Below, one piece after another: positions 18,765 through 20,010 of a stretch of DNA of 64,000 nt. Numbering within the stretch: position 1 is the first letter of the stretch; each line of letters opens with the position of its first letter. The notes beneath the pieces were generated by a model that did no database searches, was not told where the DNA came from, and saw nothing but the letters and a program-made list of their open reading frames with translations. A program made the translations under genes and the position numbers. Source of the DNA: Dipteris shenzhenensis (Eukaryota); the NCBI GenBank assembly GCA_047967505.1, contig CM106538.1, one strand, 5' to 3'.

Positions 18765-18990
18765 TAAACCTAAACCCTACATCCTAAACTTTAAATAATT
18801 AATACCAAAACATCTTAACCACCGTAAATCCTAAACTTTAAACATTTAATTCCTAAACCCTAAACCCTAAATCCTAAACTCCTAAACAATAAATCCTAAA
18901 CCTTAAACCCTAAACTCTAAATCATAAACCCTAAATCTTAAATCCTAAACCCTAAATCTTAAATCTTAAACCCTAAACCTTAACCCTAAA
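18765..18990 (-). repeat. Degenerate telomere-like array (CCCTAAA/TCCTAAA on +)
   Basis: CCTAAACCCTAAACCCTAAATCCTAAA runs. Confidence 0.9.
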
Positions 18991-18999
18991 ATACAACCA

Positions 19000-19560
19000 A
19001 AATTTAATGATTTTTTTAAGTTTGTGCAATAGGTTGGATATATCCCCCAACCTGTTGCTTGAGCAACAGGTTGGATATATCAAGCAATAGGTTGGGGGAT
19101 ATATCCAACCTGTTGCACAAATCAAGAATTTTTCTTATTTGTGCAACAATTTGATATACAGTTGGGGAATATATCCAACCTACAACTCAAAAATTTTCTT
19201 GATTTATGTAAGGTTGGATATACCCCCAACCTGTTGCTCAAGCAACAGGTTGGGAGGTATATCCAACCTGTTGCACAAATCAAGAATTTTCTTAATTTGT
19301 GCATCAGGTTGGGGGTACCCCCCAACCTGTTGCTTGAGCAATAGGTTGGAGGCTGTTGTTGGATATATCCCCCAACCTATTGCTTGAGCAACAGGTTGGG
19401 GGGTATATCTAACTTGTTGCTCAAGCAACAGGTTGGGGGGTATATCCAACCTGTTGCACAAATCAATAAAATTCCTTGATATTTACAATAGGTTTAGTGC
19501 ACCATTAACCTATTCGACTTGCAACAGTTTGGAGGATATATCAAACCTATTGCACAAATG
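19000..19560. repeat. Cluster of hairpin motifs CAACCTGTTGC(TTGA/TCAA)GCAACAGGTTG
   Basis: More than ten full or half copies in both orientations, with GGATATATCC spacers. Confidence 0.92.
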
Positions 19561-19589
19561 GAAAAAAATCATAAAATTTTGATTGTATT

Positions 19590-20010
19590 TTAGGGTTAAA
19601 GTTTAGGGTTTAGTATTTAGGGTTAAGGATTTAGGGCTTAGGATTTAAGATTTAGTGTTTAGGGTTTCGTGTTTATGATTGTCTTTAGGGTTAGGGTTTA
19701 GGATTTAGGGTTTAGGGTTAAGGGTTTAAAATCTAGGGTTTAGGGTTTAGGATTTAGCATTTAGGGTTTATGATTATTGTTTTAGGGTTTAGGATTTAGG
19801 ATTTAAGTTTTAGGTTTCAGGGTTTAGTATATAAGATCATGAGCTTAGAGTCTAGAATCTTGGGTTTAGAATTGAAAATTAGGTTCTAGAATTTAAGTTA
19901 TAGGGGTTAGGGTTTAAGGTCTAGGGATTATAACTGTTATATAAGTTTAAGAGCTTAGATTGTATAACCTAAGATTTAGGGAACTTTAGGATTTAAGATT
20001 TAGGGTGTAA
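19590..20010 (+). repeat. Degenerate telomere-like array (TTTAGGG/TTTAGGA)
   Basis: TTTAGGGTTAGGGTTTAGGATTTAGGG runs, decaying to the right. Confidence 0.88.

What the first reader, a model, noticed from the sequence alone, without database searches (positions are those of the whole stretch)
18765..20010. 1.2-kb palindrome capped by outward-facing telomere repeats (mini-chromosome-like)
Seen: (CCCTAAA)n, then CCCTAAAATACAACCAAAATTTAATGATTTTTTT..TTTGTGCAATAGGTTGGATATATCC (~18984-19046), then a hairpin cluster, then the near-perfect reverse complement (~19534-19595), then (TTTAGGG)n. This is the orientation of the two ends of a linear chromosome. It lies between the transposase on the minus strand and the RING relic on the plus strand. 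Inference: a bidirectional promoter or cruciform, or a small self-contained foldback element with telomeric ends.
Basis: partly seen in the sequence, partly recalled or inferred. Interest (0 to 1): 0.72.

Follow-up and report, generated by a model that had tools for sequence, protein, structure and literature searches.

The report
Transposon hairpin cluster flanked by telomere-like repeats
The palindrome is real, but it looks like the upstream control region of a decayed, little-known DNA transposon, in which a cluster of hairpin repeats is flanked by an amplified telomere-type motif, rather than a captured mini-chromosome.

Summary
The structure exists as described. A degenerate (CCCTAAA)n tract lies at 18765-18990, a 598-bp hairpin-rich core at 18991-19588, and a degenerate (TTTAGGG)n tract at 19589-~20016. 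The arms are 85% identical, so this is old DNA and not an assembly fold-back.

It abuts the 5' end of a decayed DUF7869-type (RNase H-like) putative transposase, E2, on the minus strand. The only other DUF7869 gene in the window, E1, shares 31-37% amino-acid identity with E2. E1 also has a telomere-like array about 150 nt upstream, in the same orientation.

I examined 80 metagenomic loci that encode relatives. Clusters of lineage-specific hairpin repeats sit at the same place (about 2 kb upstream of the DUF7869 domain) in 7 of the 45 loci with enough upstream DNA. One clade carries a conserved telo-box (TTTAGGGTTTAG) directly between the hairpin cluster and the gene.

Best reading (0.6): the core is the transposon's hairpin-repeat region. 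The arrays are a local amplification of its telo-box, and an old inverted duplication made the palindrome.

A telomerase-capped mini-chromosome is unlikely. Genome-wide copy number could not be tested because no genome is held. Function (transposase binding, promoter, TRB recruitment) is inferred.

The parts
18765..18990 (.). Left telomere-like tract, (CCCTAAA)n on the + strand, which is (TTTAGGG)n in the sense of the E2 gene. Decayed: 7 exact units of 32 possible.
18991..19588 (.). Core: a chain of about 16 copies of the 12-mer CCAACCTGTTGC in alternating orientation. Three spacer types occur: GG(G)ATATATCC, the short loop TTGA/TCAA, and the long loop ACAAATCAAGAATTTTCTTRATTTGT. The symmetry centre is near 19288. 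The first and last ~56 nt are unique inverted flanks.
19589..20016 (.). Right telomere-like tract, (TTTAGGG)n on the + strand. It has 13 exact units of 61 possible and is regular only to about 19810.
15829..18638 (-). E2: decayed DUF7869-type putative transposase. It is broken into four ORFs and has an internal 48-bp x 5.2 tandem repeat at 17681-17930. Homology to E1 starts 127 nt from the left tract.
15459..15658 (.). 59-bp x 3.1 tandem repeat with hairpin units (GTTGAATTCAAC, GGTGTATAGATACACC), immediately 3' of E2.
21162..21768 (.). 125-bp x 4.9 tandem repeat. Each unit carries a variant of the core hairpin (GTTGCRTACGCAATAGGTAGGGAGG).
22157..24004 (.). 70% G+C low-complexity block holding 5 copies of a GC-rich variant of the hairpin (CCCCACCTGTTGCACACGCAACAGGGGGG).
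   Evidence: family D8
6373..7170 (+). Array 1: (TTTAGGG)n-like tract (39 exact units of 114 possible). It lies 148 nt upstream of the start of E1/E2 homology.
7225..11002 (+). E1: DUF7869-type putative transposase in two long ORFs (781 and 427 aa), followed by a 56-bp x 2.1 repeat at 11099-11217.
58235..58924 (-). Array 3: an inverted duplicate (82-87% identity) of array 1 plus its upstream flank (5143-7106 versus 60331-58235). No DUF7869 gene lies behind it.

Best explanation
The core (18991-19588) is the hairpin-repeat cluster that DNA transposons of the DUF7869 family carry just upstream of their transposase gene. Here it belongs to the decayed copy E2.

The telomere-like tracts are a lineage-specific amplification of a telo-box (TTTAGGG units in the sense orientation of the gene). 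In a related clade this telo-box is a 2-3-unit element between the hairpin cluster and the gene's TATA box.

The palindrome beyond the hairpin cluster (inner unique flank plus array on both sides) arose by an old inverted duplication across the self-complementary cluster. After that the two arms decayed independently.

How it works (inferred): the lineage-specific hairpin repeats are binding sites for the element's own protein, as subterminal repeats are in other DNA transposons. The telo-box tract is an upstream promoter element that recruits host telomere-repeat-binding Myb proteins. In this copy, with E2 broken and the arrays decayed, the region is probably no longer functional.
For: Shown:
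1. Association with the gene. The window's only two DUF7869 genes (tblastn) share 31-37% amino-acid identity. Each has a telomere-like array 127 nt (E2) or 148 nt (E1) upstream of the point where their proteins become alignable, with TTTAGGG on the coding strand in both.
2. Hairpin clusters are a family trait. Dense clusters of hairpins (stem 10 with at most 1 mismatch, at least 4 within 200-nt steps) occur in 7 of 80 relatives' loci. All 7 have a cluster 1.7-2.4 kb upstream of the DUF7869 match (L016, L029, L030, L037, L041, L046, L047). 45 of the 80 loci have at least 2250 nt upstream.
3. The window core lies about 2.0-2.6 kb upstream of the equivalent point in E2.
4. Looser palindromic repeats lie upstream in L002 (TTTGGCCATATGGCCAAA, 4-5 copies), L014/15/18 and L017 (GGTGGCCACC arrays) and L027.
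5. Each lineage has its own stem sequence.
6. Hairpin repeats also follow the gene in L016, L030 and L001. 59-bp and 56-bp repeats follow E2 and E1.
7. Telo-box. The block GTCCGTACAGTTTAGGGTTTAG follows the cluster in L029, L037 and L046. TTTAGGGTTTAG occurs twice in L027. L047 has C-strand telo-boxes on the side of its divergent second gene.
8. 7 of 9 cluster-bearing loci have a telo-box-like 7-mer within 150 nt of the cluster, against 0.49 sites per kb overall.
9. The hairpin motif TTGC-N4-GCAA occurs 12 times in the window, all within 19055-23704 (shuffles: 1.0). So the arrays do not bound the motif domain.
10. Age. The arms are 85% identical. Each array is closer to a perfect repeat (scores 222 and 249) than to its partner (181).
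11. A 393-nt contig of an independent small run (X1) reproduces 18613-19010 with 5 substitutions and 8 gap letters.
12. A fold model of a relative has an RNase H-like beta-beta-beta-alpha-beta-alpha-beta core around the invariant D509, D512, D591 and H627-T-H-x3-D633. Its best (weak) structural matches are transposases and other RNase H-fold nucleases.

Inferred: transposase binding, promoter function and TRB recruitment.
Against: - None of the 80 relatives' loci has a telomere-like array.
- The relatives closest to E1/E2 (L002, L005) have no telo-box-like 7-mer upstream. The telo-box link may therefore be convergent rather than inherited.
- 32 of the 45 loci with enough upstream DNA show no hairpin cluster by any of my criteria.
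- The cluster-bearing loci fall into a few clades, so they are not independent counts.
- E1 has no hairpin cluster beside its array. It has only a different palindrome (TTGCTGCCNNGGCAGCAA and relatives) scattered 1.2-7 kb upstream.
- No terminal inverted repeats or target-site duplications were found for E1, E2 or the relatives. Element boundaries are therefore unknown, as is whether the cluster is terminal or internal.
- No gene is recognisable to the right of the right array.
- The core has no second copy in the window.
- The conserved block GTCCGTACAG is absent from the window.
Confidence: 0.6

Rival explanations
1. A self-contained foldback or MITE-like non-autonomous element. Its long inverted arms are built of tandem sub-repeats (telomere-like 7-mers outside, hairpin units inside). 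It is mobilised in trans and sits next to E2 by insertion or by descent from the transposon's own end.
For: The anatomy fits: a 1.2-kb near-palindrome whose arms are made of short tandem repeats, with no ORF inside. The hairpin motif is of the kind that DUF7869 elements carry, so a transposase could act on it.
Against: - There is no second copy in 64 kb.
- No target-site duplication can be read at the decayed outer edges.
- The hairpin motif continues outside the supposed element up to 23.7 kb.
- E1 has the array without the palindrome.
- The array-to-gene distance is the same in E1 and E2, which an independent insertion would not explain.
Confidence: 0.12
2. Ordinary interstitial telomeric repeats with no function. 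Telomerase or repair added repeats at breaks in a fragile, hairpin-rich or transposase-cut site, and later duplication produced the inverted arrangement.
For: Insertion of telomeric repeats during double-strand-break repair is documented for human and horse genomes (PMC7215372, abstract seen in the listing). A review of interstitial telomeric sequences is PMC6410037 (abstract seen). The window has four such arrays in 64 kb. All are degenerate, and the variants in L and R are often C-to-T changes on the C strand.
Against: Two very divergent gene copies have the array at the same distance and in the same orientation. Distant relatives keep 2-3 units inside a conserved block at the equivalent place, which repair would not produce repeatedly.
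Confidence: 0.12
3. Relic of a linear mini-chromosome or linear extrachromosomal palindrome. The core once existed as a free linear DNA whose two 3' ends were extended by telomerase, and it was later integrated.
For: The orientation 5'-(CCCTAAA)n...(TTTAGGG)n-3' is that of two chromosome ends. Each array is closer to a perfect repeat than to its partner, as independently decaying arrays would be. Palindromic linear molecules with telomeres at both ends exist (ciliate rDNA; recalled, not from a call).
Against: - The array/unique junction is the same on both sides.
- The arrays are best preserved at the inner side and most decayed at the outer side.
- The same array type precedes E1 with no palindrome.
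- The telo-box sits at the homologous place in relatives.
- The hairpin motif extends beyond the right array.
Confidence: 0.04
4. Assembly artefact, such as a fold-back chimera or a mis-join in repeats.
For: The assembly is scaffolded, with a 100-N gap at 5043-5142. The region is highly repetitive. No laid run covers the core.
Against: Fold-back chimeras give near-identical arms; these differ at 15% of aligned positions and by many indels. A contig of run X1 reproduces 18613-19010, including the gene/array and array/core junctions, with its own differences.
Confidence: 0.03

Closest known systems
Subterminal repeat regions of plant DNA transposons, such as the 12-bp TnpA-binding motifs of En/Spm (CACTA) in direct and inverted orientation (recalled, not from a call)
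   Same: A short element-specific motif (here a 12-mer) is repeated many times in both orientations next to the transposase gene. It differs between lineages of the same family.
   Different: Here the units form perfect hairpins arranged as a tandem array. No terminal inverted repeats were found. In some relatives the cluster lies between two divergent genes rather than at a visible end. The transposase is of a different, uncharacterised family (DUF7869).
Plant telo-box: short interstitial telomere motifs in gene promoters bound by TRB Myb proteins (PMC10167121 and PMC11287191, abstracts seen in the listings)
   Same: The same motif (AAACCCTAA/TTTAGGGTT) lies directly upstream of a gene. In relatives, 2-3 units lie about 175 nt upstream of a TATATATAG box.
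   Different: In the window the motif is amplified to 0.2-0.8 kb tracts and belongs to a transposon. Binding by TRB proteins was not tested.
Telomere-bearing elements (TBE) of Oxytricha (PMC4724952, abstract seen in the listing) and Tel-1 of Tetrahymena (recalled)
   Same: Telomere-type repeats are physically associated with a DNA transposon, in the outward 'chromosome-end' orientation.
   Different: In those elements the repeats sit at the extreme ends, with the transposase between them. Here the transposase lies outside the pair of arrays and only the hairpin cluster lies between them. The hosts are ciliates with programmed DNA elimination.
Foldback (FB-type) transposons (recalled)
   Same: Long inverted arms made of short tandem sub-repeats, strong self-complementarity, and no ORF inside.
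   Different: Multiple copies and target-site duplications were not shown, and the motif domain is not bounded by the arms.
Interstitial telomeric sequences and head-to-head telomere fusion sites (review PMC6410037, abstract seen; orientation of fusion sites recalled)
   Same: Degenerate telomere repeats lie inside a chromosome.
   Different: Fusion sites have the arrays facing inward, (TTTAGGG)n(CCCTAAA)n. Here they face outward with 598 bp between them.

Membership tests
5' region of a DUF7869-family transposon | Lies directly upstream of a gene with the DUF7869 domain | tested here: met
   In E2, Pfam DUF7869 scores 3.2e-20. The tract begins 127 nt from the start of E1/E2 homology.
5' region of a DUF7869-family transposon | Cluster of lineage-specific hairpin repeats about 2 kb upstream of the DUF7869 domain | tested here: met
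   The window core lies about 2.0-2.6 kb upstream. Relatives have clusters 1.7-2.4 kb upstream in 7 of 45 loci with enough upstream DNA. The feature is my own definition, not a published one.
5' region of a DUF7869-family transposon | Telo-box between the hairpin cluster and the gene, G strand in the gene's sense | tested here: met
   Present in the window (E2 as an array; E1 as an array without a cluster) and in L029, L037, L046 and L027. Absent from the closest relatives L002 and L005.
5' region of a DUF7869-family transposon | Defined element ends (terminal inverted repeats, target-site duplication) enclosing the region | tested here: not met
   No inverted terminal repeats were found for E1, E2 or four relatives.
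Former chromosome ends / telomerase-capped linear DNA | Arrays added independently to two ends, with homogeneous distal repeats and degenerate proximal ones | tested here: not met
   The arrays are most regular next to the core and decayed outward. The array/unique junction is identical on both sides.
Former chromosome ends / telomerase-capped linear DNA | Molecules or reads that end in the arrays | not testable with these tools
   Only contigs of unrelated or low-depth runs could be laid, and none covers the core.
Foldback / MITE-like element | Many dispersed copies with target-site duplications | not testable with these tools
   No genome is held. There is one copy in the window. Pattern scans of genome contigs and viral contigs found 0 matches, but these collections hold no plant genomes.
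Foldback / MITE-like element | Long inverted arms of tandem sub-repeats | tested here: met
   Arms 18766-19267 versus 19810-19358, 85% identical.
Telomere-bearing transposons of ciliates (TBE/Tel-1) | Telomeric repeats at the extreme ends of an element that encloses its transposase | tested here: not met
   The transposase relic lies outside the pair of arrays.
Head-to-head telomere fusion site | Inward-facing arrays (G strand then C strand) that abut | tested here: not met
   The arrays face outward and are 598 bp apart.
Known RNA families (miRNA precursors and others) | Rfam gathering score | tested here: not met
   The best match is MIR6140 at 52 bits against a gathering score of 140. It matches on both strands, which marks it as a generic hairpin hit.

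The most novel reading that the evidence does not exclude
A previously undescribed clade of DUF7869 DNA transposons in TTTAGGG-telomere hosts has made the host's telomere repeat part of its own control region. The repeat sits beside a cluster of element-specific hairpins. In this genome it has been amplified into outward-facing arrays that recruit telomere-repeat-binding (TRB-type) proteins. The arrays could drive expression in dividing cells, or attract or deflect Polycomb silencing, on both sides of the hairpin cluster.
Probability: 0.3. Interest if true: 0.65.

Novelty: new variant of a known kind. Interest (0 to 1): 0.45.

Why it matters
If this reading holds, some interstitial telomere-like arrays in plant-type genomes are neither scars of chromosome fusion nor scars of repair. 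They would be amplified cis-elements carried by a transposon family.

That would link three things usually treated apart: interstitial telomeric repeats, telo-box/TRB regulation, and transposon control regions.

It also gives a first anatomical description of DUF7869 elements: a hairpin-repeat cluster, a telo-box, the transposase gene, and 3' repeats. My literature search returned no paper for this domain name.

Practically, it warns against reading outward-facing telomere repeats as former chromosome ends.

Tried and rejected
- **Whole-genome search:** no genome is held for this window.
- **Earlier findings of the scan:** nothing by place or by sequence.
- **Sequencing runs:** 22 runs listed, none holding half or more of the words, and no RNA holder listed. 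Four runs were laid. X2, X4 and X5 cover only the telomere-like tracts. X1 covers 18613-19010 and some short pieces. No laid run covers the core.
- **Pattern scans for the full hairpin:** 0 matches in genome contigs and 0 in viral contigs. These collections are not expected to hold plant DNA.
- **Protein search with the 781-aa N-terminal ORF of E1:** no hit at E <= 0.001, and no Pfam family.
- **PDB sequence search with the family profile:** nothing meaningful; best E-value 0.31.
- **Foldseek:** no match at E <= 0.001. The best is IstA at 3.8e-3.
- **Terminal inverted repeats:** none for E1, E2 or relatives.
- **Second gene of L046-type relatives:** tblastn against the window gave nothing better than E = 0.8.
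- **RING-like ORF:** single copy and unrelated to the relatives' loci.
- **Shared variants between the two arrays:** the in-register score (181) falls within the range of the controls (maximum 193). This test therefore gives no evidence for or against duplication of an already decayed array.
- **Rfam:** only sub-threshold hairpin matches.
- **Bacterial promoter/terminator scan:** not informative for a eukaryote.
- **Literature:** searches for 'DUF7869', interstitial telomeric + transposable element + TTTAGGG + inverted, telomere-like repeats + transposon + subterminal, telo-box + TE + TRB + PRC2, telobox + TE + H3K27me3 and telomeric repeats + DNA transposon + TIR + telomere-bearing found no description of such an element. 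The Linum preprint and the H3K27me3 preprint were checked by passages and are not relevant.

Full report
**Observation**

The region reads as described.
- A degenerate CCCTAAA-type tract lies at 18765-18990. TRF gives period 7 and 77% matches. Only 7 exact units of 32 possible are present.
- It is followed by 598 bp of nested hairpins.
- A degenerate TTTAGGG-type tract then runs from 19589 to about 20016. TRF gives 71% matches, and 13 exact units of 61 possible are present.

The two sides are inverted copies. A local alignment pairs 18766-19267 with 19810-19358 at 375 of 439 identical positions, with many indels. The symmetry centre is near 19288.

The core is a chain of the 12-mer CCAACCTGTTGC in alternating orientation. 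Of 19 window matches with at most 1 mismatch, 16 lie at 19026-19532, against 0.23 expected. As single-stranded DNA the core folds at -217.8 kcal/mol, with z = -26.6 against shuffles.

**Real DNA, not an artefact**

The arms differ at 15% of aligned positions. Each array is closer to a perfect repeat (scores 222 and 249) than to its partner (181). The palindrome is therefore old and its arms decayed separately. A chimeric fold-back read would give near-identical arms.

A 393-nt contig from a small independent run (X1) reproduces 18613-19010 with 5 substitutions and 8 gap letters, including one missing 7-mer. That stretch covers the gene leader, the whole left tract and the first 20 nt of the core. 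The other three laid runs hold only telomere-type words, and no laid run covers the core.

**Context in the window**

The DNA is of plant type. It has TTTAGGG repeats and CACTA-type Transposase_21 ORFs. Named relatives of the DUF7869 protein occur in the liverwort Riccia sorocarpa and in marine invertebrates.

The left tract abuts the 5' end of a decayed DUF7869 gene, E2 (minus strand, 18638 down to 15829). The only other DUF7869 gene in the window is E1 (plus strand, 7225-11002), which is 31-37% identical to E2 at the protein level.

E1 is preceded by a longer telomere-like array at 6373-7170. The distance from the array to the point where the two proteins become alignable is 148 nt in E1 and 127 nt in E2. 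TTTAGGG is on the coding strand in both. The telomere-like tracts cover only about 3% of the window, so two such placements are unlikely to arise by chance. This is my own rough estimate, on the order of 1e-4, and comes from no tool.

A third array (58235-58924) is an inverted duplicate of E1's array and upstream flank.

**Relatives**

No genome is held. I therefore fetched 80 metagenomic loci that encode DUF7869 relatives at about 25-53% identity over the matched segment.

None has a telomere-like array. Many do have tandem arrays of short palindromic units upstream of the gene.

With a fixed criterion, dense hairpin clusters occur in 7 loci. Each of these has a cluster 1.7-2.4 kb upstream of the DUF7869 match. 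45 of the 80 loci have at least 2250 nt upstream. The window core lies about 2.0-2.6 kb upstream of the same point in E2.

Looser palindromic repeats occur upstream in L002, L014/15/18, L017 and L027. The stems differ from lineage to lineage:
- AACTCGATAC..GTATCGAGTT
- AAGTCGATGC..GCATCGACTT
- CCACGGGTG..CACCCGTGG
- TCATCCCAG..CTGGGATGA
- TTTGGCCAT|ATGGCCAAA
- GGTGGCCACC
- CCAACCTGTTGC..GCAACAGGTTGG in the window

In L016, L030 and L001 the hairpins also follow the gene. E2 and E1 are followed by 59-bp and 56-bp repeats.

In L046, L047, L029, L039 and L027 a conserved second gene lies on the opposite strand. In L046, L047 and L029 the cluster lies between that gene and the transposase gene.

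**Telo-box**

In L029, L037 and L046 the cluster is followed within about 60-140 nt by the conserved block GTCCGTACAGTTTAGGGTTTAG. In L029 and L037 a TATATATAG box lies about 175 nt downstream of the block, and the start codon about 280 nt further on.
- L027 has TTTAGGGTTTAG twice.
- L047 has C-strand telo-box-like motifs on the side of its divergent gene.
- Seven of nine cluster-bearing loci have such a 7-mer within 150 nt of the cluster, against 0.49 sites per kb overall.

These loci belong to a few clades and are not independent. The relatives closest to E1/E2 (L002, L005) have none. The link may therefore be inherited with losses, or it may be convergent.

**What the palindrome is**

The hairpin cluster and a sense-oriented telomere motif in front of the gene are features of this transposon family. 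The window's genome has amplified the motif into arrays.

The window-specific part is that the inner unique flank plus an array occurs on both sides in inverted orientation. The flanks of L047's cluster are not inverted repeats. The simplest origin is therefore an inverted duplication across the self-complementary cluster. This is an inference.

The hairpin motif TTGC-N4-GCAA is confined to 19055-23704 (12 sites; shuffles give 1.0). It recurs in a 125-bp tandem repeat and in a 70% G+C block to the right. The arrays therefore do not delimit the motif domain.

**Against the mini-chromosome reading**

- The array/unique junction is the same on both sides.
- The arrays are best preserved next to the core and decayed at the outer edges.
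- E1 has the array without a palindrome.
- Relatives carry the motif as a short conserved element.

**The protein**

The family alignment has invariant D509, D512, D591 and H627-T-H-x3-D633. An AlphaFold model (mean pLDDT 65.5) has a beta-beta-beta-alpha-beta-alpha-beta core at these residues.

Foldseek finds only weak matches. The best are IstA (3.8e-3), Mos1, Argonaute PIWI domains and retroviral integrase, all with the RNase H fold. 'Transposase' remains a well-founded inference and is not shown.

**Limits**

- Element boundaries are unknown.
- Copy number in the genome, transcription, small RNAs and protein binding could not be tested.
- I found no paper describing such elements. The library does not hold most subscription journals.

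Noticed in passing
window 5043-5142: A run of 100 N, which is a scaffold gap. It lies just left of the flank shared by telomere-like arrays 1 and 3.
   Followed up: no
window 1-4439 vs 59968-63998; 5143-7106 vs 60331-58235: A large direct repeat (85% identity; purine-rich, 66% G+C low-complexity DNA) and an inverted repeat that includes arrays 1 and 3. The array module is inverted relative to the purine-rich block in the two copies.
   Followed up: partly
window 299, 1054-1059, 1758, 2001, 5194: A recurrent palindrome, TTGCTGCCNNGGCAGCAA / CGCTGCCGCGGCAGCG, lies in the GC-rich DNA upstream of E1. 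It may be E1's counterpart of E2's hairpin motif.
   Followed up: partly
window 26140-28778 and 38031-39764: A satellite with a 189-bp period occurs in two blocks in opposite orientation.
   Followed up: no
window 55435-56700 (-), 36484-37326 (+), 32669-33019 (-); 33227-33923: CACTA-type Transposase_21 ORFs, and a second dense hairpin cluster with stem GCATAAGCA at 33.2-33.9 kb.
   Followed up: no
L029 1648-2421 (-), L039 860-1594 (-): Metagenomic DUF7869 elements carry an ORF matching Pfam N6_N4_Mtase (DNA methylase, 1.3e-10). It sits beside a conserved ~590-aa gene of no known family, divergent from the transposase.
   Followed up: partly
window 24706-25080 (+): A RING-like ORF scores below Pfam's cutoff (zf-RING_2, 20.7 bits against 27.3). 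It is single copy in the window and has no counterpart in the relatives' loci.
   Followed up: partly
window 13715-13922: A (GT)n and (GA)n microsatellite block lies between the 3' ends of E1 and E2.
   Followed up: no
window 14049-15024 vs 41327-42221: A direct repeat of 92-94% identity, probably another dispersed element, lies next to the 3' side of E2.
   Followed up: no
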